This document shows positions 1 through 23,117 of a stretch of 45,219 nt of DNA, in pieces. Location: IMG/VR virus record IMGVR_UViG_646206259_000004; one strand, 5' to 3'. This stretch comes from a virus. Lineage: Duplodnaviria; Heunggongvirae; Uroviricota; Caudoviricetes. The position numbers and the translations under genes are program-made. The notes below the pieces were generated by a model, which saw only the letters and a program-made list of their open reading frames with translations, did not search any database and was not told the DNA's origin. Position 1 is the first letter of the stretch; every line of letters starts with the position of its first letter.

Positions 1-1131
1 TCAAATGACCAGTTTTTTCCATTCCTTACCGCGTGCGTCGTTGTAAATATCGGTCATTTTTTGATTCGAATGGCCCAGCAAAATTTTGGTATCAACCCCC
101 TGCTCTCTGAACAATCGCTCTGATAAAGATCTCTGCTCATGGAAAGAGGGTGGGGTGCCATTAGCACGCCAGTTGTAATCCACAGAATCCCGGGCTTTTT
201 TAAATGCAACGGTTAATGTTGCTGGCTTAACCATCCCGCCGCGCTTAGCTGTCCCTTTCGCGTGATGGTGGTGCAATAGCCACGGACTAAGAACGCAATC
301 GCGGCAGGATGACACCACATCATCTAGGGTGAGATTTAATTTATCGCAACGCAGAGCCAGAGGGATGGCAATCCGGGTTCCTGTTTTTTGCTGTTCGACA
401 TGAAGATAACCATCCCGGATATCCGAAAATTGCATTTTGCAAATATCTGAAAGGCGCTGGCCTGTCATCAGTGCCAGCAGCATACCGCGCTGTAAAAAGT
501 AACCATCCTTTTCCGCTGCGTTATAAATCATCATCCACTCATCAAAAGTCAGTCGCTGTCTTGATATCCGCACCTGCGGTTTTTTTGCCGATTCTGCAGG
601 GTTAAAGCCTGGCGGGACATCGCCCGTTTGCTGAGCTTCCCGGAAAACATCGATCAGTACTTTCCTGAAAATTTGTCCCATTCTGTTATGTCCTCTGGCC
701 TTGTACTCTTCCAGTACTGATACCACATCTTTTACGGTTATGGCATCTAACGGTCTGGTGCCAAAACGTTCATCAAATACCCTGAGAGGGGCCGCTTTCT
801 GTTTCAGCGTGTTGAGTTTGATCTCGCCGTTTTCATATCTTTCCTGTTGAATTTTTCTGTAATTATTCAGAAAAATGGTAACGGTTGATGAACCGCCGGT
901 GTCACTAATAATTTTCTCCTGCAGACTGAGCATTTGTTCCATTTGCTGCCGGGCAAGACGGCTGTTCGCTTCTGCTGCAATAGTTTCTGCCAGTTTCTGG
1001 TCAATACTGCCGAGACCGTGATTTTTGCCTGTTATGGGATGCCTGTAACGCCAGTAAACTTTGTTATTTCTTTTGTCAAAATACGGAGATAATCCCGGAA
1101 CATCGGTTTTATATTTTCGCGGGCGCGCCAT
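1..1131 (-). CDS. int: Tyrosine integrase (lambda Int family)
   Basis: 376 aa ORF at the prophage end; C-terminal LLGHSNQKMTDIY motif typical of the catalytic His/Tyr region of tyrosine recombinases; adjacent overlapping excisionase-like gene. Confidence 0.9.
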   Translation of the reverse strand: MARPRKYKTDVPGLSPYFDKRNNKVYWRYRHPITGKNHGLGSIDQKLAETIAAEANSRLARQQMEQMLSLQEKIISDTGGSSTVTIFLNNYRKIQQERYENGEIKLNTLKQKAAPLRVFDERFGTRPLDAITVKDVVSVLEEYKARGHNRMGQIFRKVLIDVFREAQQTGDVPPGFNPAESAKKPQVRISRQRLTFDEWMMIYNAAEKDGYFLQRGMLLALMTGQRLSDICKMQFSDIRDGYLHVEQQKTGTRIAIPLALRCDKLNLTLDDVVSSCRDCVLSPWLLHHHHAKGTAKRGGMVKPATLTVAFKKARDSVDYNWRANGTPPSFHEQRSLSERLFREQGVDTKILLGHSNQKMTDIYNDARGKEWKKLVI

Positions 1132-1357
1132 CTTCCAGTATCCTCTTCAAAGCAGGGTGATCTGTGGCGATCACCTCCGGCTTGTTTACCATTCCGACAA
1201 AGCGAGCTTGCGGATCCACTCGCCAGCGTCTTCCAACTTTTTTGGGGAGAGGAAATATCATTCCGGCTTTAGCGTATTTACTTAACGTACTCGGAGTAGG
1301 GACCGGTTCACTGAATTCCTCCTTTGCCCACTCAGTGAGCAGAATAAGTCTTGCCAT
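1109..1357 (-). CDS. xis: Excisionase (Xis-like)
   Basis: 82 aa ORF overlapping the int start by 23 nt; pattern LLTEW...IFPLPKKVGRRWRV resembles lambda Xis (EW...IFPPPVKDGREY). Confidence 0.75.
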   Translation of the reverse strand: MARLILLTEWAKEEFSEPVPTPSTLSKYAKAGMIFPLPKKVGRRWRVDPQARFVGMVNKPEVIATDHPALKRILEDGAPAKI

Positions 1358-1421
1358 GAGCGTCGTTCGCTAATCATGGTCGCCGCCACTATAGCTGGTG
1401 GGCAACGACCGGGGTTGAACA

Positions 1422-3893
1422 TTAAAAATCAGCCTGATTTGGGATCAGTTTTTGCCAGATAGCTGAAACGTATTTTGCCTGGTAACGGGCGTCATCAAGT
1501 GCATTATGGCGCTCACCTTCGAATGGAATAGCCGTTCTGGCATCGAAGTCTATGGCTTTCCCCAGCTCAACGATTGTGCGTACATCGCGATCGTTGTAGT
1601 AACGCCACGGGCAGGGGATCCCCTGCCGTTCGTATGAACGGCGCAAAATCGTGTTGTCGAAGTTGGCTCCATTTCCCCAAACCTGAACAAAAAATTCACC
1701 GGAGTTTTCGTCGATAAATTCCCGCAATTGTAACAGTGCATCATCTAACGGGATTTCATCGGTCATAATGGCAGATTGCGCTTCGCGTGATTGCTTAAGC
1801 CACCATTTAATGGTGTCCCGATCAATGACTCCGCCAGCAGTTTCCAGATCGATAGTCTTACTAAATTCCGGTCCCATATCTCCGGTTTGCGGATCGAAAA
1901 ATATTGCACCTATTGAGATGATCGGGGCATCAGGATTTTTTCCCATGGTTTCAAGGTCGATCATTAGATGGTCACACGTCCTGCTGGTGGATGTGATTTC
2001 GTGATGACCGTTCACCTTAATTGGGTGATCTGCCGTCTCGCCAGTTTCATTATCGCTATTGTGATGCTGATTGCCGCCAGTGTTCTCCTTGTGTGGATGT
2101 TCAGCGCCTTCCATTTCCTCCGGATCATCTTCCTGAACTTCAACCTGATACTCTTCATCGAATGTTTCTTGGTATGTTGCGTCGCCCATCACCGCGCCAC
2201 AATCAGGACAGTTGCCGCCGCCGGTCTGACCGCAGGCGGTGCAGGCTTTTTCCACTTCCTGGTGCGCCACTGGTTCAGGCTGTTTCGTTTCTGGCTCGTT
2301 TTGTAACGCATTTGGACTGTTTTGTTCCGCTTTTTGGTAGTTCCGTTCCGATTCATGCTGGTTCTGGCTCACAGAATCGCGGGTCTGGATCCCCTTAATC
2401 CATTTCGGATCATTCGGGTCACTAATCCCTTCAACAAATTCACCACGTGATGCAGCAAGCAACTTATCGGCGTCAGGCTGGCTGATATTGGCTGCCTGCA
2501 TAATTTTGTTTACTTCGTCAGCGGTAACTTTTATCGGCTCTGGTTGTTCTGAATCTTCAGCGGTATCTACATTTTGCGGTAAGCCCGTGTATGTGCCATT
2601 TTTTCGGGCAAAATATTCTTCTTTTGTGATTTCAGTGGCGCCAGCAGCCAGTGCCTTATCCAGACCAGAAAGTTTGTTTGCGCGACCGTATTTTTCTCCG
2701 TCCTTATCTGCGAAGAGGAAATAGAACGGCCCCTCACGCTCTACAGATGGTTCAGCTTCCGGCGCGGTTTCATTTTTTGGGATATCAGATACCTCAGTTT
2801 CCACTGCATCAGTTTGTGTTTCTGATGACTGGAGAACATCAACAGTGCCCAGGTCTGTTTCTTCATTCTCAAACACGCCCTTTGTCGTCAGGTATTCGCA
2901 GATATATTTGTTCAGTGCTACGGGATCTTTGTGAATGTCGATCGGACGCTCACGGACAAGGCCAAAAATAGTTTGGCGGTCGTAGCGAAGGGCATCAGGC
3001 TGTTTGCGCATTGATGCCGAGATACGCTTCCAGTCTTCGCGGTCGTTGTCGATAACTTCTTTTTTTGCCCAGCGATGGATGCTGCCGTCAATGTTTCCGG
3101 CATCCACATCACCAGGCCAGAGAGCGTAGGCCAGTTCGTCATCCAGTGTTTTCCATGTCTGCTTGTATTCGCGATGAATGGCAGCAATGACCGGGCTGAT
3201 TTTTCCTGTTGAATTTTCAGTGTACTGTTGATTGGCTCTGGCGCGGGCGAGATCAACAACAGACGTGTATTTTCCGGTTTCCTTGCGTTCACCTTCGCGA
3301 CGTTTTTTCCAGATGCGCATCTCTGCCTGAATTTCGGGCCATTTAGCACCAGGAATACATTTATGCTTAACCCACCCAATGGCGTGCAACTTAAGCTCCG
3401 GATACATGGCGTTAACTTCTGGCATTTTCATCAACGCTTCAACGATATGTCCGTCGAATGTTGCCATGTCTTCCTGCAACAATTCCTGTGCGCTAATAAC
3501 CATATCAACGGTGATGTTTTCACATGTGTCGAACTTAACCATGACAGCGTTCTGTACTTCAGGGGCCAGCTTGTCAAAAGTGACGTTCATCGGATCGGAT
3601 TCAGTCTCGACCGGAACAAAGGAAGCAGACGCCTCATCCCAGCGGTTTTCCTGCATATATTCAGCATCCCAGGAATCGAGGGCAGGGCGGGGTATACCGG
3701 GTTTATCCTCGCAAACAAGAAATTTATAAGCGCAGTCCTGAGCAGCCGGATAATGTTCCAGGAATTGCCAGTGAAATTTTGCGCGGGCGCGACGTTCATC
3801 ACCGGCTTCAATGGCAGTGGCTACAGCGACGGCACCTTCTTCCTTTATTGCCTGTTCGTCCGGAATGGCGGCGCAAATAAAGACTTTACTCAT
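1422..3893 (-). CDS. Phage exonuclease with C-terminal DEDDh (DnaQ-like) 3'-5' exonuclease domain
   Basis: 823 aa ORF; C-terminal region carries MIDLETMG, GNGANFD and HNALDDA motifs (DEDDh exonuclease signature); central CxxC...CxxC zinc-ribbon-like segment and long acidic linker. Position after xis matches the exo slot of lambdoid prophages. Confidence 0.7.
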   Translation of the reverse strand: MSKVFICAAIPDEQAIKEEGAVAVATAIEAGDERRARAKFHWQFLEHYPAAQDCAYKFLVCEDKPGIPRPALDSWDAEYMQENRWDEASASFVPVETESDPMNVTFDKLAPEVQNAVMVKFDTCENITVDMVISAQELLQEDMATFDGHIVEALMKMPEVNAMYPELKLHAIGWVKHKCIPGAKWPEIQAEMRIWKKRREGERKETGKYTSVVDLARARANQQYTENSTGKISPVIAAIHREYKQTWKTLDDELAYALWPGDVDAGNIDGSIHRWAKKEVIDNDREDWKRISASMRKQPDALRYDRQTIFGLVRERPIDIHKDPVALNKYICEYLTTKGVFENEETDLGTVDVLQSSETQTDAVETEVSDIPKNETAPEAEPSVEREGPFYFLFADKDGEKYGRANKLSGLDKALAAGATEITKEEYFARKNGTYTGLPQNVDTAEDSEQPEPIKVTADEVNKIMQAANISQPDADKLLAASRGEFVEGISDPNDPKWIKGIQTRDSVSQNQHESERNYQKAEQNSPNALQNEPETKQPEPVAHQEVEKACTACGQTGGGNCPDCGAVMGDATYQETFDEEYQVEVQEDDPEEMEGAEHPHKENTGGNQHHNSDNETGETADHPIKVNGHHEITSTSRTCDHLMIDLETMGKNPDAPIISIGAIFFDPQTGDMGPEFSKTIDLETAGGVIDRDTIKWWLKQSREAQSAIMTDEIPLDDALLQLREFIDENSGEFFVQVWGNGANFDNTILRRSYERQGIPCPWRYYNDRDVRTIVELGKAIDFDARTAIPFEGERHNALDDARYQAKYVSAIWQKLIPNQADF

Positions 3894-3985
3894 TTTGTTT
3901 TACCTCATTACAGATTTAAGGGTGAACAAATCCCTGCCATTGCTGGCATATAAGAATGAAATCGGATGTTTATTACGGAACTGTT

Positions 3986-4186
3986 TTAAAGACCTGCCGG
4001 GATTTCGTTATTATCCTGGTGAATAACTTTATCGACCGGGTAACAGTTACCGGGAATTTTCTGTTCGGTTGCTGCAGTCACACACTCCTGCATTGTCCTG
4101 TGAACACTGACTGCAGTATCAACTGGCTCTCCGGAAACAAGAAAAACTGTCAGAACAAGTGCAAATGCTGTATTCATTGCCAGCAT
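3986..4186 (-). CDS. ydfD: YdfD-like small membrane (lysis) protein
   Basis: 66 aa from the internal ATG with AAGGA RBS; hydrophobic N-terminus (AFALVLTVFLVSG) then ...VSVHRTMQEC...GNCYPVDKVIHQDN..., matching my recollection of Qin YdfD; overlaps the dicB stop by 13 nt. Confidence 0.55.
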   Translation of the reverse strand: MLAMNTAFALVLTVFLVSGEPVDTAVSVHRTMQECVTAATEQKIPGNCYPVDKVIHQDNNEIPAGL

Positions 4187-5756: not shown

Positions 5757-6395
5757 TTAAATATTTTGTTGAATTTTAAAGCATACGCCCAATATGCAAG
5801 ATAGATCATCCAGCATAATTGAAGGGTAGCGAGGATTCGTGGGGACTAAAAGAATATCCGGCCCTTCTATCTCCAGTTTACGAATGACAGGTGTTGTGGT
5901 CCCTTTGGGTAAGGCAAGGACAATATTTCCTGGTTGTACGGTTCGATCGGGATCAACAAAAACTGTTGAACCATTTGGGATGGAAACTCCCCCACCAGAT
6001 GTTGACATACTGTCACTCTCTAGAACAACTGCAAAGGTATTGGCCGGGATTTCTCCGACAAGCTGCACACAAGAGGTTATTGAGGAATTTTTCATATAAT
6101 CACTCCAGCTTGCTGCCTGCTGAAGTGATAGTAGCGGAACCGTTTTTATCGGCGGTAAAGATAGATCAAGCGAATCACCTGTATTTAACTCTCCTCCATT
6201 AAGAAGCCAATTTTCGTTTACTTTCAATATTTTTGCCAGTGAACTTATGTAACGCGAGGACGGCGCTCCTCCACCGTTCATCCATTGACTTACGGAGCCT
6301 TTTGATGCGCCAGTGGCATTGACAAGGTCTTTGCCTTTCAGGTTTAGCGCATGCATACGTTGGGTTATGCGTTCAGATATTGTTTGCTTGTTCAT
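5757..6395 (-). CDS. CI-like prophage repressor (HTH plus S24 LexA-like peptidase domain)
   Basis: 212 aa; N-terminal HTH (LKGKDLVNATGASKGSVSQWMNG), C-terminal S24 autocleavage module with the SDSMS serine motif and downstream Lys (VIRKLE); divergent from the cro-like gene. Confidence 0.85.
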   Translation of the reverse strand: MNKQTISERITQRMHALNLKGKDLVNATGASKGSVSQWMNGGGAPSSRYISSLAKILKVNENWLLNGGELNTGDSLDLSLPPIKTVPLLSLQQAASWSDYMKNSSITSCVQLVGEIPANTFAVVLESDSMSTSGGGVSIPNGSTVFVDPDRTVQPGNIVLALPKGTTTPVIRKLEIEGPDILLVPTNPRYPSIMLDDLSCILGVCFKIQQNI

Positions 6396-6729: not shown

Positions 6730-7138
6730 ACACATCCGCATGGCGATGAATGCCTGGGCGCGTCCTGATGGCGAAAAAGTTCCGGCAGCTGGAATAACCC
6801 AGGCTTATTTTGAGTTGGGTATGACGTTTCCTGAACTGTACGACGACAGCCATCCGGAAGCCCTGGCTCGCAATACCCAGAAAATTTTCCGCTGGATAGA
6901 GAAAGACACCCCTGATGCAGTTGAAAAAATTCAGGCGTTGTTACCAGCGATCGAAAAGGCAATGCCACCTTTGCTGGTGGCCAGAATGCGCAGCCACAGT
7001 TCAGCTTATTTTCGGGAGCTGGTGGAGACGCGGGAGCGACTGGTGAGAGACGCTGATGATTTTGTCGCAGTGGCAATCGCCGGTTTCAATCAGATGAACC
7101 GTGGTGGCCCGGCAGGAAATGCTGTGGCAGTACATTGA
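6713..7138 (+). CDS. CII-like / YdaT-like regulator
   Basis: 141 aa from MKIKHEHI... with a strong AAGGGGGG RBS; second gene of the early rightward operon; N-terminus resembles Rac YdaT from memory. Confidence 0.5.
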   Translation: MKIKHEHIRMAMNAWARPDGEKVPAAGITQAYFELGMTFPELYDDSHPEALARNTQKIFRWIEKDTPDAVEKIQALLPAIEKAMPPLLVARMRSHSSAYFRELVETRERLVRDADDFVAVAIAGFNQMNRGGPAGNAVAVH

Positions 7139-8320: not shown

Positions 8321-8743
8321 GTGGCAAAAGTTTTTACACAAGAAGAGCGGGAAAAAATTAAAGGACAGGTTGTTGAACTCGTACGCCAGAGTGGGCGTGA
8401 GACGTTACGGCAACTGGAAGTCAAGACAGGTGCGACAAGATATCTGATGAGCGTTCTCGCAAGAGAGCTGGTTGCCAGCGGCGATGTATGCAACTCTGGT
8501 TACGGGTTATTCCCGTCTGAACAGGCGCGTAAGGACTGGCAAAATGCCCGTAAAAAGCTCTCAAGGGCAAAGCTGAAGAAACCATCTGCGGTTGATCCGG
8601 ACCTTATCTGGTCATTACCTGACGGAGAAATACGTCGCTACGACAGGCGTCAGAACATAATCTGTCGCGAGTGCCGGAAGAGTGAAGTTATGCAGCGCAT
8701 ATTGTCGTTTTATCAGGGTGATGTTCGGTATTTATTGAAGTGA
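8321..8743 (+). CDS. Hypothetical phage protein
   Basis: 140 aa ORF with GTG start 5 nt after an AGGAGG RBS; basic C-terminus with a CRECRK motif; no family recognised. Confidence 0.5.
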   Translation: MAKVFTQEEREKIKGQVVELVRQSGRETLRQLEVKTGATRYLMSVLARELVASGDVCNSGYGLFPSEQARKDWQNARKKLSRAKLKKPSAVDPDLIWSLPDGEIRRYDRRQNIICRECRKSEVMQRILSFYQGDVRYLLK

Positions 8744-8874
8744 CGAGATTAAAGTGCATTAGTTCAGATGCAAATTGACATTTTGTGGCACAGGGTAGAG
8801 CTAGCGTGGTTGTCCGCTTTGTGCCAATAGCGGACATTGCTGGCTCATGGTATGTTAGTTTAAGGAGGCAGGTT

Positions 8875-9897
8875 ATGCCCTGTATTTCGCTGTGGTATAA
8901 TAGTTGCGCAATTGATACAAGGGAGCGTTACATCGTGAAAATTGTTTTCGAGGTTAATGGAAAGAAAGTTCCACTAAAATCTTTAAAATACATAAGCAAA
9001 AAAGATCAACTCGAAGTAATGAAAAACTGGTTCTTTGAAAACTTTGAAGATCCGGCAAATGCTTGTCCGTATGAAAGTAGAGAAGGTGGCTATGCTTACA
9101 TATATGGCGGGCCGTATGATGCGAGCGAAGAACTACAATCCATCTTCGGTCAATATGTTAAATCTGAGTATATTGAGGAATTAGTAGATGAATTACAAAC
9201 ACAATGTTTTGACTGGTCTGGAAACTCAAATAATATAGATGATTGGTACGATGATGATATCTACGACGCTGTAACGTCTTCCGGTAATCCGTATTTAAAA
9301 TTCATTGATAATATCGATAAAATAAAAAAACTTGCAAAAGATAAAACTGAACAACAGCAAAAAAACCACTTGCTTAGTTTGCTCTACACGAATGTTATTA
9401 CAGCTTTGGAAACGCTTTATGTTGAGCTATTCATTAATTCTATAGAGAAAGATGATGTCTACATAGCCAATTGTATAGAAAAAGGTAAGACTGAATTTAA
9501 AGTAAGCAAAGATATTGCTGCGTTGCCTTTCAAGGGTGAACCCATCGAGAAAATTAGGGGAGAGCTAATCAGGTCAATCAAGGAACACTTGATCAGTGCA
9601 AGCTGGCATAGCACTAAAAAGGTAATCGACCGCTATGAAGCTACATTCGATATAAAAGTACAAAAAGACTGTCCGATAGAAGCTATTGAATTGGCAACCC
9701 TCAATCGAAATCACTTAGTGCATCGTGGTGGAAAGGATAAAGAAGGGAACCTCGTAGTGATTACAGACCAGGATCTTGAAACGCTGATTGAAAATGCATC
9801 GAACCTGGCAATTATGCTCTACAACAGTTTAAATGTAGCAACGAATAAAACCACCATTTTGCAACCAGATGACAAACCGTTCATTCATGAATTTTAA
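8875..9897 (+). CDS. Hypothetical protein, gene A of AT-rich cassette (possible HEPN-like C-terminal region)
   Basis: ATG at 8875 six nt after AGGAGG; alternative in-frame GTG at 8935 downstream of an extended -10-like TGGTATAAT (8892-8900). Strongly AT-rich codon usage unlike flanking genes. C-terminal LNRNHLVHRGG fits an Rx4H HEPN-like motif (by eye only). Confidence 0.6.
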   Translation: MPCISLWYNSCAIDTRERYIVKIVFEVNGKKVPLKSLKYISKKDQLEVMKNWFFENFEDPANACPYESREGGYAYIYGGPYDASEELQSIFGQYVKSEYIEELVDELQTQCFDWSGNSNNIDDWYDDDIYDAVTSSGNPYLKFIDNIDKIKKLAKDKTEQQQKNHLLSLLYTNVITALETLYVELFINSIEKDDVYIANCIEKGKTEFKVSKDIAALPFKGEPIEKIRGELIRSIKEHLISASWHSTKKVIDRYEATFDIKVQKDCPIEAIELATLNRNHLVHRGGKDKEGNLVVITDQDLETLIENASNLAIMLYNSLNVATNKTTILQPDDKPFIHEF

Positions 9898-9912
9898 TAG
9901 CGCAGGTCATAC

Positions 9913-10914
9913 ATGGATATTCGCACACGAAAGACAAAATTTTTAGAGTCGTTAGATTCAACTGAAGTGATACGCAAAGCAGTAAGTCTCGCTATAGATT
10001 GCATTATTGATAATCATAATAGTAATGAAGATACCCCCTTAGTTATTACCAGCTATGATGATCTCTGTAGAATCCAGGTGCTAAATTATGTACAGGAGTT
10101 TTGCGAAGCTGCATTCCCTGATATGGATGAATATTACTTTAGTCCTAACATACTTCGCATCAACGGCAAGACTAGTGAAGAAGCTTGTATTAACTTAATT
10201 AAACTCTTAAGAAGTACAAAAGGCATGCTATTCTGGTCCGATGCCCCATCGTGGTTCGCTAGCCTCCCCGACGGATTATTCCATGTTGTTAACATTGATC
10301 AAAAAATCGTTACTCGCGGCCTTAATAAGAAAAACTCTAAGCCGACAATAATCAATAAAGATTACAGTGTAGATACACTACTATCAGAGCTATTTTTGAA
10401 TGGCGCACACATGGAGCAACCCAACGTACACAACGTTTCTGAGGGAAACATGAAGTTCTATGATGAATGCCATGCTGGATTAATCAGACCAATACCCGCT
10501 CCAATAGGCGCGTCATACGATGAAGAGATCACAATTAATTCTCCAGATTGGCAAAAGCTCGCGTGTGTAGCTTTACGCCGCTATCAGTCGAAGGAATGTC
10601 ATGACGGAATGCAATGGGATACAACCGATCATGGTTGGACTGATGTAATCGCGTATCCATTCGTCGAAGAAATACAATCAATGGATAATAGTGGTTATCG
10701 ACAATGTTTAGTTGGGCTGGTCACAATAAACAATTCAAATGCAAATTCTCCGTACCTATCTACCGTTTGGATACATCCATTTTATCGCAGGAGAGGGTTA
10801 TTAAGTAAGTTATGGCCAAAATTACAAGAGTTATATGGAAGTAACTTCGAAATTGAGCGACCTAATGAAAATATGAAAGCATTTCTGAAAAGTGCGAAAC
10901 ACGCAGATTACTAA
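9913..10914 (+). CDS. Hypothetical protein, gene B of AT-rich cassette (possible GNAT-like C-terminal fold)
   Basis: 333 aa ORF 15 nt downstream of gene A, same strand and AT-rich composition; C-terminal VWIHPFYRRRGLLSKLW resembles GNAT motif A (by eye only). Confidence 0.6.
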   Translation: MDIRTRKTKFLESLDSTEVIRKAVSLAIDCIIDNHNSNEDTPLVITSYDDLCRIQVLNYVQEFCEAAFPDMDEYYFSPNILRINGKTSEEACINLIKLLRSTKGMLFWSDAPSWFASLPDGLFHVVNIDQKIVTRGLNKKNSKPTIINKDYSVDTLLSELFLNGAHMEQPNVHNVSEGNMKFYDECHAGLIRPIPAPIGASYDEEITINSPDWQKLACVALRRYQSKECHDGMQWDTTDHGWTDVIAYPFVEEIQSMDNSGYRQCLVGLVTINNSNANSPYLSTVWIHPFYRRRGLLSKLWPKLQELYGSNFEIERPNENMKAFLKSAKHADY

Positions 10915-11230
10915 TTTATGAATCAGTCTGTGGAGTTAGGGTTGGTGTCAACAAGTAGGGTAAGAGCCTCAACGTGATGCTATGCCGACCTGCTCCCTGA
11001 GAATTCACACAGAAGGCTGCTAGCAATGTCTGCAGATCGCTCAAAGCGGACTAGAAGGTTAGCTTGCGTCGGACTTGGCGTATTTAAAGAAGTGCTGGTG
11101 GTGACTGGTTGTTGTGTTCCATTTCTACAGAACAAAATCACAGAAACTATACCCAATAGTTATATTGAATCAATGATGAGACAGCCTCATATTTATCAGA
11201 ACTGGTGTACGTCCAATACAGGAGGTTGTC

Positions 11231-19418: not shown

Positions 19419-19517
19419 ATGGCTGAAAAATTATCCACCTGGAAGTTCATTCTTATCTGGCTGGTGTTTGTGATTATGGCCTCTGGTTATTTCATCGGTC
19501 AGATACGCTGGTGGTGA
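19419..19517 (+). CDS. Candidate small membrane protein (32 aa; 46 aa from GTG 19380)
   Basis: [32 protein letters not shown], a single hydrophobic helix; ends 1 nt before the Rz start; AGGAGA RBS upstream of the GTG alternative start. Confidence 0.3.
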
Positions 19518-19518
19518 A

Positions 19519-20145
19519 ATGAACCGCGTACTGTGCGTGGTCATCATTGCCCTGCTGGTGGCCTGTGGTGCGCTTAGTCTGGGGCTGAATCATTACCGTG
19601 ATAACGCCATTACCTACAAAGCCCAGCGCGACAAAAATGTCAGAGAACTGAAGCTGGCGAACGCGGCAATTACTGACATGNNNNNNNNNNNNNNNNNNNN
19701 NNNNNNNNNNNNNNNNNNNNNNNNNNNNNNNNNNNNNNNNNNNNNNNNNNNNNNNNNNNNNNNNNNNNNNNNNNNNNNNNNNNNNNNNNNNNNNNNNNNN
19801 NNNNNNNNNNNNNNNNNNNNNNNNNNNNNNNNNNNNNNNNNNNNNNNNNNNNNNNNNNNNNNNNNNNNNNNNNNNNNNNNNNNNNNNNNNNNNNNNNNNN
19901 NNNNNNNNNNNNNNNNNNNNNNNNNNNNNNNNNNNNNNNNNNNNNNNNNNNNNNNNNNNNNNNNNNNNNNNNNNNNNNNNNNNNNNNNNNNNNNNNNNNN
20001 NNNNNNNNNNNNNNNNNNNNNNNNNNNNNNNNNNNNNNNNNNNNNNNNNNNNNNNNNNNNNNNNNNNNNNNNNNCGCGACTGATAATAATGCAAAAACAA
20101 CTTGAAGGGGCACAGCTATACATTCGAGAGCAATGCCTCAGATAA
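19519..20145 (+). CDS. Rz: Rz i-spanin (interior N-masked; embedded Rz1 not visible)
   Basis: N-terminus ...[31 protein letters not shown] and C-terminus [20 protein letters not shown] match lambda Rz; 19681-20074 is N-masked. Confidence 0.8.
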
Positions 20146-21576: not shown

Positions 21577-23117
21577 NNNNNNNNNNNNNNNNNNNNNNNN
21601 NNNNNNNNNNNNNNNNNNNNNNNNNNNNNNNNNNNNNNNNNNNNNNNNNNNNNNNNNNNNNNNNNNNNNNNNNNNNNNNNNNNNNNNNNNNNNNNNNNNN
21701 NNNNNNNNNNNNNNNNNNNNNNNNNNNNNNNNNNNNNNNNNNNNNNNNNNNNNNNNNNNNNNNNNNNNNNNNNNNNNNNNNNNNNNNNNNNNNNNNNNNN
21801 NNNNNNNNNNNNNNNNNNNNNNNNNNNNNNNNNNNNNNNNNNNNNNNNNNNNNNNNNNNNNNNNNNNNNNNNNNNNNNNNNNNNNNNNNNNNNNNNNNNN
21901 NNNNNNNNNNNNNNNNNNNNNNNNNNNNNNNNNNNNNNNNNNNNNNNNNNNNNNNNNNNNNNNNNNNNNNNNNNNNNNNNNNNNNNNNNNNNNNNNNNNN
22001 NNNNNNNNNNNNNNNNNNNNNNNNNNNNNNNNNNNNNNNNNNNNNNNNNNNNNNNNNNNNNNNNNNNNNNNNNNNNNNNNNNNNNNNNNNNNNNNNNNNN
22101 NNNNNNNNNNNNNNNNNNNNNNNNNNNNNNNNNNNNNNNNNNNNNNNNNNNNNNNNNNNNNNNNNNNNNNNNNNNNNNNNNNNNNNNNNNNNNNNNNNNN
22201 NNNNNNNNNNNNNNNNNNNNNNNNNNNNNNNNNNNNNNNNNNNNNNNNNNNNNNNNNNNNNNNNNNNNNNNNNNNNNNNNNNNNNNNNNNNNNNNNNNNN
22301 NNNNNNNNNNNNNNNNNNNNNNNNNNNNNNNNNNNNNNNNNNNNNNNNNNNNNNNNNNNNNNNNNNNNNNNNNNNNNNNNNNNNNNNNNNNNNNNNNNNN
22401 NNNNNNNNNNNNNNNNNNNNNNNNNNNNNNNNNNNNNNNNNNNNNNNNNNNNNNNNNNNNNNNNNNNNNNNNNNNNNNNNNNNNNNNNNNNNNNNNNNNN
22501 NNNNNNNNNNNNNNNNNNNNNNNNNNNNNNNNNNNNNNNNNNNNNNNNNNNNNNNNNNNNNNNNNNNNNNNNNNNNNNNNNNNNNNNNNNNNNNNNNNNN
22601 NNNNNNNNNNNNNNNNNNNNNNNNNNNNNNNNNNNNNNNNNNNNNNNNNNNNNNNNNNNNNNNNNNNNNNNNNNNNNNNNNNNNNNNNNNNNNNNNNNNN
22701 NNNNNNNNNNNNNNNNNNNNNNNNNNNNNNNNNNNNNNNNNNNNNNNNNNNNNNNNNNNNNNNNNNNNNNNNNNNNNNNNNNNNNNNNNNNNNNNNNNNN
22801 NNNNNNNNNNNNNNNNNNNNNNNNNNNNNNNNNNNNNNNNNNNNNNNNNNNNNNNNNNNNNNNNNNNNNNNNNNNNNNNNNNNNNNNNNNNNNNNNNNNN
22901 NNNNNNNNNNNNNNNNNNNNNNNNNNNNNNNNNNNNNNNNNNNNNNNNNNNNNNNNNNNNNNNNNNNNNNNNNNNNNNNNNNNNNNNNNNNNNNNNNNNN
23001 NNNNNNNNNNNNNNNNNNNNNNNNNNNNNNNNNNNNNNNNNNNNNNNNNNNNNNNNNNNNNNNNNNNNNNNNNNNNNNNNNNNNNNNNNNNNNNNNNNNN
23101 NNNNNNNNNNNNNNNNA

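What the first reader, a model, noticed from the sequence alone, without database searches (positions are those of the whole stretch)
8760..10925. AT-rich two-gene cassette between the replication module and hok: candidate undescribed accessory or defence system
Two co-directional genes (about 340 aa and 333 aa, 15 nt apart) have strongly AT-biased codon usage that contrasts with the flanking genes, which marks a horizontally acquired moron. They sit between replication genes and the hok/nin/Q region, a slot where lambdoid phages commonly carry defence or exclusion cargo. Neither protein matches a family I recognise with certainty. By eye, gene A ends with LNRNHLVHRGG, which fits an Rx4H HEPN-like motif, and gene B ends with VWIHPFYRRRGLLSKLW, which resembles GNAT motif A. 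A HEPN-like plus GNAT-like pairing is not a textbook toxin-antitoxin or defence architecture that I know. An extended -10-like TGGTATAAT at 8892-8900 suggests the cassette has its own promoter. The helicase-loader gene expected in this replication module is missing, possibly displaced by the insertion.
Basis: partly seen in the sequence, partly recalled or inferred. Interest (0 to 1): 0.85.

Follow-up and report, generated by a model that had tools for sequence, protein, structure and literature searches.

The report
Hairpin-bounded HEPN plus GNAT defence-type cassette
A 2.2-kb AT-rich insert in an E. coli prophage carries a predicted RNA-cutting protein related to a newly proven anti-phage protein and an unusual acetyltransferase-like protein. 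The whole unit is bracketed by small DNA hairpins at which such cargo units are swapped between prophages, plasmids and chromosomes.

Summary
Gene A (8935-9897, 320 aa, GTG start) has a HEPN/RES-NTD1 N-terminal domain and a RiboL-PSP-type HEPN domain with an invariant Rx4H motif. Gene B (9913-10914, 333 aa) has a novel N-terminal domain and a GNAT fold. Both are AT-rich, under purifying selection, and absent from PADLOC.

A has the architecture of aRES, a stand-alone anti-phage protein reported in 2026, with HEPN in place of RES. A and B co-diverge as one unit in Enterobacterales. Each family also occurs widely without the other, so an obligate pair is not shown.

The unit (8812-11051) is bounded by inverted GTCCGC-N12-GCGGAC hairpins. 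It occurs in at least 10 unrelated contexts. The same hairpins bracket Gabija, 3HP and AbiGi elsewhere. In one plasmid, exchange breakpoints lie inside both hairpins.

The idea that the insertion displaced a helicase loader is not supported.

Most likely this is a mobile defence-type cassette: an infection-activated HEPN RNase plus a separable GNAT accessory gene. It is a new variant of a known kind. No phenotype has been tested.

The parts
8812..8849 (+). Left end of the cassette. It holds the hairpin GTCCGCTTTGTGCCAATAGCGGAC (8812-8835) followed by ATTGCTGGC, and it is the inverted repeat of the right end.
   Evidence: Homology to cassette copies in unrelated contexts starts at 8812. The motif search gave 3 matches against 0.06 expected. 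An inverted repeat has arms 8799-8844 and 11019-11064. nhmmer E 1.9e-12. The DNA fold is -9.3 kcal/mol, z -3.2.
8848..8900 (+). Leader with two extended -10-like elements, TGGTATGTT (8848-8856) and TGGTATAAT (8892-8900). This is the putative promoter of the cassette itself.
   Evidence: Sequence. TGGTAYAAT is kept in 10 of 11 other copies, including the two A-deleted copies. The consensus scanner does not list it because there is no -35 element. Overall leader identity is no higher than expected from dS.
8935..9897 (+). Gene A, 320 aa (WP_014639476.1), starting at GTG with the Shine-Dalgarno sequence AGGGAG at 8920-8925. It is an NTD1-HEPN protein.
   Evidence: phrog_17908. dN/dS 0.12-0.21.
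8935..9225 (+). HEPN/RES-NTD1 domain of A (PF18870), about residues 1-97.
   Evidence: The window protein scores 22.2 bits, E 1.9e-4, below the Pfam cut-off of 27.4. 48 of 51 homologues match. Conserved block WFxxNFEDP...YIYGGPY.
9289..9858 (+). HEPN domain of A, about residues 119-308. The Rx4H motif RNHLVHR is at 9706-9726 (R258-R264).
9913..10914 (+). Gene B, 333 aa (WP_000354966.1), 15 nt after A, with a weak Shine-Dalgarno sequence.
   Evidence: phrog_16994. dN/dS 0.19-0.42, including A-less copies.
9913..10467 (+). N-terminal alpha/beta domain of B, about residues 1-185, with no assignable family.
   Evidence: No Pfam hit. No PDB sequence or profile hit. It is not found in any other architecture among 1.84 billion representatives. 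Model pLDDT is about 90.
10480..10902 (+). GNAT-fold domain of B, about residues 190-330. The motif-A-like stretch WIHPFYRRRGLLSKLW is at 10768-10815.
10915..11051 (+). 3' non-coding part and right end of the cassette. It holds AGCAAT plus the hairpin GTCTGCAGATCGCTCAAAGCGGAC (11028-11051).
   Evidence: The last 63 nt occur alone on 24 other plasmids. No Rfam family matches.

Best explanation
The region is a discrete mobile cargo cassette (8812-11051) of the defence type. It has its own promoter-like leader, and palindromic hairpins at its ends mark where such cassettes are exchanged.

Gene A is the main effector. It is a stand-alone NTD1-HEPN protein, the HEPN-effector counterpart of aRES (NTD1-RES). 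I infer that its N-terminal domain holds the HEPN RNase inactive until phage infection. RNA cleavage through the Rx4H site then arrests growth and aborts infection.

Gene B is a two-domain GNAT-type acyltransferase. It is linked to A in this lineage but can be separated from it. I infer that it acts as an independent accessory conflict gene, with acyl transfer to a phage or host target chosen by its N-terminal domain, rather than as an obligate partner of A.

Shown here: domain folds, conserved motifs, purifying selection, cassette boundaries and mobility, defence-rich company, and the occurrence of each gene without the other.

Inferred: RNase activity, activation by infection, any anti-phage phenotype, the substrate of B, and the recombination mechanism at the hairpins.
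For: A's identity:
- PF18870 matches 48 of 51 homologues and PF18735 matches 28 of 51.
- R258 and H263 are invariant.

Link to a proven defence protein:
- aRES proteins are defined by RES plus PF18870. They protect E. coli as single genes, with growth arrest.
- PF18870 is also fused to PIN and to RNase E/G elsewhere, which shows effector swapping.
- The NTD1-HEPN fusion was catalogued in PMC3710099.

A works alone:
- 78 genome loci across many phyla have A homologues without B and without any conserved neighbour.

B's identity:
- GNAT fold.

B works alone and keeps defence company:
- The solo-B copies L098 and L147 keep the cassette leader fused to B after a clean deletion of A (8912-9833).
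- dN/dS in those copies is about 0.25.
- B homologues sit beside PD-Lambda-4, HerA and PDC-S06.

Defence-type cargo class:
- Identical hairpins bracket Gabija (directly adjacent in L101), Rst_3HP and AbiGi.
- The same slot holds 3HP in strain TUM18781.

Mobility:
- The unit has the same boundaries in at least 10 contexts and on 6 plasmids.
- Breakpoints lie inside both hairpins in the K. variicola plasmid compared with K-12 Qin.

A is tolerated without intact B:
- Strain SF-173 has IS1 in B and an intact A.
Against: - No phenotype was tested.
- Neither protein, nor any of 51 A homologues, matches a PADLOC model.
- The window's own A scores below Pfam cut-offs: PF18870 at 22 bits against 27.4, and no PF18735 hit.
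- Several facts would also fit a true two-gene system. A and B share one hairpin-bounded unit, have a fixed 15-nt spacer, and co-diverge (A 100 to 84% identity, B 100 to 78%).
- In SF-173 the N-terminal 187 residues of B survive, so a neutralising role for that domain is not excluded.
- Stand-alone relatives of B's GNAT domain lie next to primase genes in phage and satellite contigs. This could point to a phage-side function rather than a defence function.
- The glycine of B's motif A is not conserved.
Confidence: 0.5

Rival explanations
1. A and B form one two-component system. The GNAT protein B controls the HEPN RNase A, for example by acetylating A or its target. That would resemble type VII toxin-antitoxin pairs, where an enzyme antitoxin modifies the HEPN toxin. 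Alternatively B is the sensor that licenses A during infection.
For: - There is one hairpin-bounded unit with no hairpin between the genes.
- The 15-nt spacer is constant, and no terminator-like site was found by the scan.
- The two genes co-diverge across at least 10 contexts.
- Other hairpin-bounded units usually hold one system, such as 3HP or Gabija.
- Decay is more often seen as loss of A with B kept (L098, L147, L148, L135), as expected if A were a toxin.
- In SF-173 the N-terminal domain of B is retained.
Against: - Most A homologues have no B, and there is no conserved partner at all.
- All B homologues below about 60% identity lack A. Some pair instead with an AAA_13/PDC-S06 protein or sit after HerA.
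- aRES, which has the same N-terminal domain, works as a single gene.
- A is intact when B is disrupted by IS1 in SF-173 or by a frameshift in L106.
Confidence: 0.25
2. The cassette is cargo but not anti-phage defence. A is an addiction or stress RNase, and B is a phage-side or satellite-side factor, for example an early gene that modifies a host or rival-element protein, or a counter-defence enzyme.
For: - Stand-alone relatives of B's GNAT domain lie directly after primase or replication genes in phage and satellite contigs.
- Solo B sits after a P4-like alpha primase in L148.
- Hairpin-bounded units are not all defence. K-12 Qin has flxA (with part of the annotated ydfV) in one, and phage Evi has a regulator plus a small GNAT.
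- There are no PADLOC hits.
Against: - A's closest characterised architecture is a proven defence protein.
- Neighbours of both families are rich in defence genes: Gabija, PD-Lambda-4, HerA and PDC-S06.
- The cassette also sits in chromosomal and plasmid contexts without phage genes.
Confidence: 0.2
3. The two ORFs are decaying remnants without current function.
For: They are annotated only as hypothetical proteins. A few copies are truncated or hit by an IS.
Against: - dN/dS is 0.12-0.42 over dS up to 0.65.
- Full-length copies are at least 99% identical in 205-209 of 5426 E. coli genomes.
- Catalytic motifs are invariant.
- Structure models are confident.
Confidence: 0.03

Closest known systems
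aRES (antiphage RES-domain proteins; Osterman et al., bioRxiv 10.64898/2026.01.28.702374)
   Same: Both have the PF18870 HEPN/RES-NTD1 N-terminal domain followed by a toxic effector domain. Both are single genes found in defence islands of Enterobacteria. The aRES phenotype is growth arrest on infection.
   Different: The effector here is a HEPN RNase domain, not the RES NAD+ phosphorylase. No phenotype is known. This copy is linked to a GNAT gene.
RiboL-PSP-HEPN and the AbiD/AbiF-like HEPN abortive-infection proteins (Anantharaman et al. 2013, PMC3710099)
   Same: Both have the all-helical HEPN fold with an Rx4H motif. The 2013 survey already lists HEPN/RES-NTD1 fused to HEPN and calls RiboL-PSP-HEPN a distant relative of AbiD/AbiF.
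   Different: The window protein itself does not reach the PF18735 threshold. The 2013 survey lists no GNAT neighbour for this family in the passages retrieved.
HEPN-MNT (HepT/MntA) type VII toxin-antitoxin systems
   Same: A HEPN RNase is encoded next to a transferase-type enzyme. In HepT/MntA the enzyme chemically modifies the HEPN toxin.
   Different: The partner here is a GNAT fold with a novel N-terminal domain, not a minimal nucleotidyltransferase. A carries a sensor-like N-terminal domain. The pairing is not conserved across either family.
GNAT toxins of type II TA systems (TacT, AtaT, ItaT, KacT), cited from my own knowledge
   Same: Both are GNAT-fold proteins on mobile elements in conflict contexts.
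   Different: Those toxins are about 160-180 aa and are paired with a small RHH antitoxin. B is 333 aa with an extra domain, no RHH gene is adjacent, and B persists alone.
Cassette systems bounded by recombination sites: integron attC cassettes, Acinetobacter pdif modules, and the P2 'TO region' inserts of Nilsson et al. 2004 (Mol Biol Evol 21:1). The paper is not held, so its content is cited from memory only.
   Same: Discrete cargo units with sharp ends at short palindromic sites are found in many backbones. The same GTCCGC-N12-GCGGAC hairpins bracket cargo in the P2 tail-fibre-assembly-to-tail-sheath hotspot here.
   Different: Two inverted ends flank each unit, rather than one attC. No integrase or Xer-site similarity was seen. 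No recombinase has been identified.

Membership tests
HEPN superfamily (RiboL-PSP-HEPN, PF18735) | All-alpha HEPN fold | tested here: met
HEPN superfamily (RiboL-PSP-HEPN, PF18735) | Conserved Rx4-6H catalytic motif | tested here: met
   RNHLVHR. R258, H263 and R264 are invariant in 51 sequences down to 26% identity.
HEPN superfamily (RiboL-PSP-HEPN, PF18735) | Match to the family HMM | tested here: inconclusive
   The window protein has no PF18735 hit at E up to 1. 28 of 51 full-length homologues match, best E 7e-11.
HEPN superfamily (RiboL-PSP-HEPN, PF18735) | RNase activity | not testable with these tools
   Needs biochemistry.
aRES-like NTD1-effector stand-alone defence proteins | PF18870 N-terminal domain | tested here: inconclusive
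   The window protein scores 22.2 bits, E 1.9e-4, below the cut-off of 27.4. 48 of 51 homologues match.
aRES-like NTD1-effector stand-alone defence proteins | RES domain as effector | tested here: not met
   The C-terminal domain is HEPN. A is therefore not an aRES, only built like one.
aRES-like NTD1-effector stand-alone defence proteins | Functions as a single gene in defence islands | tested here: inconclusive
   Homologues are mostly without a conserved neighbour. Some lie beside Gabija. No systematic defence-island statistic was computed.
aRES-like NTD1-effector stand-alone defence proteins | Protection against phage | not testable with these tools
   Needs plaque assays.
GNAT acyltransferase superfamily | GNAT fold | tested here: met
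GNAT acyltransferase superfamily | Pfam Acetyltransf_1 at gathering score | tested here: inconclusive
   19.9 bits against a cut-off of 20.7. NCBI names some homologues and the C-terminal fragment as GNAT.
GNAT acyltransferase superfamily | Motif A (Q/R-x-x-G-x-G/A) for acyl-CoA binding | tested here: inconclusive
   The sequence is YRRRGLL. R292 is invariant, but the glycine varies (G, R, Q, E) across homologues.
Type II GNAT-RHH toxin-antitoxin (TacT/AtaT type) | Small GNAT toxin with an adjacent RHH antitoxin gene | tested here: not met
   B is 333 aa with an extra domain. Its neighbours are A and non-coding DNA.
HEPN-MNT type VII toxin-antitoxin | Adjacent minimal nucleotidyltransferase (MNT) partner | tested here: not met
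   The partner has a GNAT fold and no NTase match.
Known or candidate defence systems in PADLOC-DB v2 | HMM match to any component | tested here: not met
   There is no significant hit for A or B. Of 51 A homologues, none hit except one weak PDC-S26 match.
Integron gene cassette | Single 3' attC (R''-L''...L'-R') with the boundary in GTTRRRY, no 5' repeat | tested here: not met
   The unit has two inverted ends, 8812-8849 and 11015-11051. Homology starts before the left hairpin. The presence of an integrase was not examined.

The most novel reading that the evidence does not exclude
The A-B unit is one member of a large, largely unrecognised family of promoter-carrying defence cassettes. In this reading the GTCCGC-N12-GCGGAC hairpin ends are sites for a dedicated, still unidentified recombination mechanism. 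That mechanism would shuffle whole defence systems (Gabija, 3HP, AbiGi, this HEPN/GNAT unit) between P2-like and lambdoid prophages, satellites, plasmids and chromosomes. It would be an integron-like exchange system for immunity genes, and it would answer the open question of how defence hotspots are refilled.
Probability: 0.3. Interest if true: 0.85.

Novelty: new variant of a known kind. Interest (0 to 1): 0.6.

Why it matters
- If A protects against phage, it extends the newly described aRES principle (one N-terminal module driving interchangeable toxic effectors) from NAD+ depletion to RNA cleavage. It would also add a system that current annotation tools miss, present in about 4% of complete E. 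coli genomes, including ExPEC/APEC lineages.
- B would be a GNAT-based conflict protein with a domain not seen elsewhere.
- Separately, the hairpin-delimited boundaries give a concrete, testable handle on how defence systems move between unrelated mobile elements. A 2026 survey of P2/P4 hotspots explicitly left that mechanism open.

Tried and rejected
- **PDB sequence and profile searches** for A and B gave nothing meaningful.
- **NCBIfam** gave nothing.
- **Foldseek against AFDB** was unavailable. Foldseek against PDB returned only the GNAT half of B, so B's N-terminal domain stays unassigned.
- **Conserved neighbours of A:** blastp clustering of genes within 3.5 kb of A in 80 loci found none.
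- **Rfam** found no RNA family in the cassette.
- **The 3' UTR** does not fold better than shuffles (z -0.4).
- **The leader** is not more conserved than synonymous sites predict, so only the -10 motifs, not the whole leader, argue for a promoter.
- **A true empty site** with a single hairpin was sought with a composite query. Only a near-empty slot with two hairpins and a 224-nt remnant turned up.
- **Literature searches** for the protein accessions and PHROG ids found nothing. No HEPN plus GNAT defence pair was found.
- **Nilsson et al. 2004** could not be read.
- **Rejected: integron attC.** The ends have the wrong topology (two inverted ends).
- **Rejected: IS or transposon.** No transposase lies in the unit and no target duplication was seen.
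- **Rejected: HEPN-MNT and GNAT-RHH TA families.** The partner types do not match.
- **The low-GC dip at 19.5-20 kb** in the composition profile is an artefact of masked N runs.
Full report
**What is there.** The window is a Qin/Rac-type lambdoid prophage of E. coli. It is 100% identical over this region to strains ATCC 11775, S88, IHE3034 and APEC O1.

Downstream of the immunity and replication genes (cro-like, YdaT-like, a 358-aa replication protein, a DUF977/'Ren-like' protein) lie two co-directional ORFs. They sit upstream of sok/hokD, DUF968, rusA and Q. GC falls to 0.34-0.41 across them, against about 0.5 or more on both sides.

Gene A is best read as 8935-9897 (GTG start, 320 aa), for three reasons:
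- PGAP calls it this way.
- All homologues begin at this point.

Gene B is 9913-10914 (333 aa), 15 nt downstream.

Both genes occur in 209 of 5426 complete E. coli genomes, at 99% identity or more in 208 of them.

**Gene A.**
- Among 51 homologues spanning 26-87% identity, 48 match Pfam PF18870 (HEPN/RES N-terminal domain 1) and 28 match PF18735 (RiboL-PSP-HEPN).
- The window protein itself reaches only 22 bits on PF18870, below the cut-off, and gives no PF18735 hit.
- R258, H263 and R264 of RNHLVHR are invariant, as are E159, W224 and H225.

The architecture was listed in the 2013 HEPN survey, which describes HEPN/RES-NTD1 fused to HEPN or RES and places RiboL-PSP-HEPN near AbiD/AbiF.

A 2026 preprint is more telling. 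It shows that proteins with PF18870 plus a RES domain ('aRES') are stand-alone anti-phage proteins. They deplete NAD+ and arrest growth on infection.

Among the loci fetched here, the same N-terminal domain is also fused to PIN and to RNase E/G plus S1 domains. This is the pattern of a shared regulatory module with swapped toxic effectors. A is not an aRES, because its effector differs, but it is built like one.

**Gene B.**
- Pfam Acetyltransf_1 is just below its cut-off.
- R292 in the motif-A-like stretch and Y308 are invariant, but the motif-A glycine is not.
- The N-terminal 185 residues are confidently modelled. They match nothing in Pfam or PDB.
- In a profile search of 1.84 billion representatives, the N-terminal domain occurs in no other architecture. 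The full two-domain family is small.
- The GNAT half also exists as free-standing proteins of about 160 aa. Two of these were looked up and lie just after primase or replication genes in phage and satellite contigs.

**Are A and B one system?**

Evidence for one system:
- In copies where B is at least 73% identical, A lies upstream; the 15-nt spacer is constant in all copies where both genes are intact.
- The two proteins diverge in step (A 100 to 84% identity, B 100 to 78%).
- The terminator scan found no terminator-like site between them, and no hairpin lies between them.

Evidence against an obligate pair:
- Of 80 genome loci with A homologues, only E. coli and Serratia grimesii have B. This includes A at 63-76% identity in Aeromonas, Yersinia and Pantoea and an unclassified enterobacterium, and many distant phyla. 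No other neighbour is conserved.
- All B homologues at 39-56% identity lack A.
- Three B copies at 86% identity (L098, L147, L148) lack A. In L098 and L147 the cassette leader, including TGGTACAAT, is fused directly to the last 64 nt of A plus B. This is a clean internal deletion.
- B elsewhere shares a unit with an AAA_13/PDC-S06 protein, follows HerA, or sits near PD-Lambda-4.
- In strain SF-173, IS1 splits B after residue 187 while A is intact.

Both genes are under purifying selection: A at dN/dS 0.12-0.21 and B at 0.19-0.42, including solo-B copies.

I conclude that the genes are linked cargo in this lineage and that each can function without the other. A regulatory interaction is possible but not shown.

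**The cassette and its ends.** Comparison with copies elsewhere shows sharp homology boundaries at 8812 and at 10988 or about 11052. Flanks are unrelated in at least 10 contexts (Serratia grimesii, several metagenomic Enterobacterales contigs, next to umuDC, and others). Six plasmids from E. coli, K. variicola, Citrobacter and Providencia carry the unit with the same boundaries.

The ends are imperfect inverted repeats. The arms are 8799-8844 and 11019-11064, 74% complementary. Each holds a hairpin GTCCGC-N12-GCGGAC. The motif gives 3 matches in the window against 0.06 expected.

The same hairpins bracket other cargo:
- In phage Evi, with identical outer flanks, they bracket a regulator plus a small GNAT.
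- In phage Tritos they bracket a 444-aa protein.
- In strain TUM18781 they bracket the 3HP system.
- In strain A20 they bracket only a 224-nt remnant.
- In P2-like prophages they sit in every intergenic gap of the tail-fibre-assembly-to-tail-sheath hotspot, bracketing each cargo gene, including AbiGi.
- In L101 a Gabija unit lies directly beside the A-B unit.
- In L154 they bracket 3HP.

As a control, 779 kb around solo-A homologues holds hairpins at only about twice the chance rate (10 observed against about 5 expected), and none brackets A.

The most direct evidence comes from a K. variicola IncF plasmid. There the A-B unit sits between the two hairpins that in K-12 Qin bracket flxA (with part of the annotated ydfV). 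Sequence identity switches from backbone to cassette inside both hairpins.

These hairpins are therefore the places where cargo units are exchanged. The company they keep makes a defence role for A-B more likely.

How the exchange happens is unknown. It could be site-specific recombination, template switching at hairpins, or short-homology recombination. Two recent surveys of P2/P4 hotspots do not mention these elements, and one explicitly leaves the exchange mechanism open. From memory, Nilsson et al. 2004 described repeats flanking inserts in the P2 TO region. I could not read that paper.

**Promoter and loader claims.** TGGTATAAT (8892-8900) lies 35 nt upstream of the GTG start. It is kept as TGGTAYAAT in 10 of 11 other copies, including the A-deleted ones. 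A second TGGTATGTT lies at 8848-8856.

The consensus scanner does not list either element, for lack of a -35. The leader as a whole is no more conserved than synonymous sites. An own promoter is plausible but not proven.

The 'missing, displaced helicase loader' idea fails. Phages Evi and Tritos share the same replication module with different cargo, and the replication protein's C-terminal half matches a DnaD-like loader family.

**Verdict.** The best reading is a mobile, hairpin-bounded, defence-type cassette with two genes:
- A is a stand-alone NTD1-HEPN abortive-infection candidate, the RNase counterpart of aRES.
- B is a separable two-domain GNAT accessory gene of unknown target.

It is a new variant of a known kind, untested experimentally, and missed by PADLOC. 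The hairpin-delimited exchange of defence cargo is the most interesting lead to come out of the analysis.

Noticed in passing
window 8812-8835 and 11028-11051; L002 4114-4137 and 5532-5555; L172 996, 3099, 3142, 4162; L171 3526, 4867, 5964; L168 2630-5044: A family of GTCCGC-N12-GCGGAC hairpins brackets cargo units in lambdoid and P2-like prophage hotspots. There are two loop classes: 'TTGTGCCAA' at left ends and 'TCGCTCA' at right ends. Polarity is fixed relative to the backbone, not to the cargo genes. Cargo includes Gabija, Rst_3HP and AbiGi.
   Followed up: yes
L222 5001-5024 and 7217-7240 compared with L216 (K-12 Qin) 5982-6005 and 6973-6996: On a K. variicola IncF plasmid the A-B unit occupies the position that flxA (with part of the annotated ydfV) holds in K-12 Qin, next to relB. 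The switch from backbone to cassette sequence falls inside both hairpins, and the right hairpin is a chimera of the two parental hairpins.
   Followed up: yes
L225 (E. coli TUM18781) 669-4025; L224 (strain A20) 1753-2024: The same DUF977-to-hokD slot holds a three-gene unit like Rst_3HP in one strain. In another strain it holds only a 224-nt non-coding remnant between two hairpins.
   Followed up: partly
L223 (plasmid pEQ2) 5958-6065, and 23 similar large plasmids: The last 63 nt of the cassette (the right-end element) occurs alone at 92% identity on IncHI-type and other large conjugative plasmids. In pEQ2 it lies a few kb from TniQ-family and ATP-binding genes. The cargo it flanks there was not examined.
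   Followed up: no
L116 5881-9411; L115: In marine gammaproteobacterial contigs, a B homologue (46% identity) shares one hairpin-like-bounded unit with a 754-aa AAA_13 protein. That protein matches the PADLOC candidate PDC-S06 and, weakly, PrrC.
   Followed up: partly
L218 4929-5411; L219 4141-4614: Free-standing proteins of about 160 aa, related to B's GNAT half (profile E 1e-37 to 1e-20), lie directly after DUF3987 or DUF3631 primase-type genes in phage and satellite contigs. This suggests a family of early-region acetyltransferase-like genes in mobile elements.
   Followed up: partly
L076 403-1623; L071 5965-8043; L059-L082: The HEPN/RES-NTD1 domain is also fused to PIN_8, to S1 plus RNase E/G, and to unassigned C-terminal domains of about 150 aa in many alphaproteobacteria. 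This widens the effector repertoire of the module.
   Followed up: partly
L201 7376-8071; L179 653-1960; L168 3030-3686: Three other hairpin-bounded cargo proteins have no Pfam match (two were also scanned against PADLOC, with no hit) but carry RNxxxH motifs (LRNSIIHRG, LRNAIVHAN, LRNYAAHES). They may be further unclassified HEPN proteins.
   Followed up: no
window about 19680-20070 and about 21580-23100: These stretches are runs of N (masked sequence) inside the lysis/spanin and terminase regions. The GC value of 0.19 at 19501-20000 in the composition profile is an artefact of this.
   Followed up: yes
window 8321-8743: The DUF977 gene just upstream of the cassette matches a PHROG annotated as 'Ren-like exclusion protein' (E 9.5e-45). 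The gene next to the slot may itself be an exclusion function.
   Followed up: no
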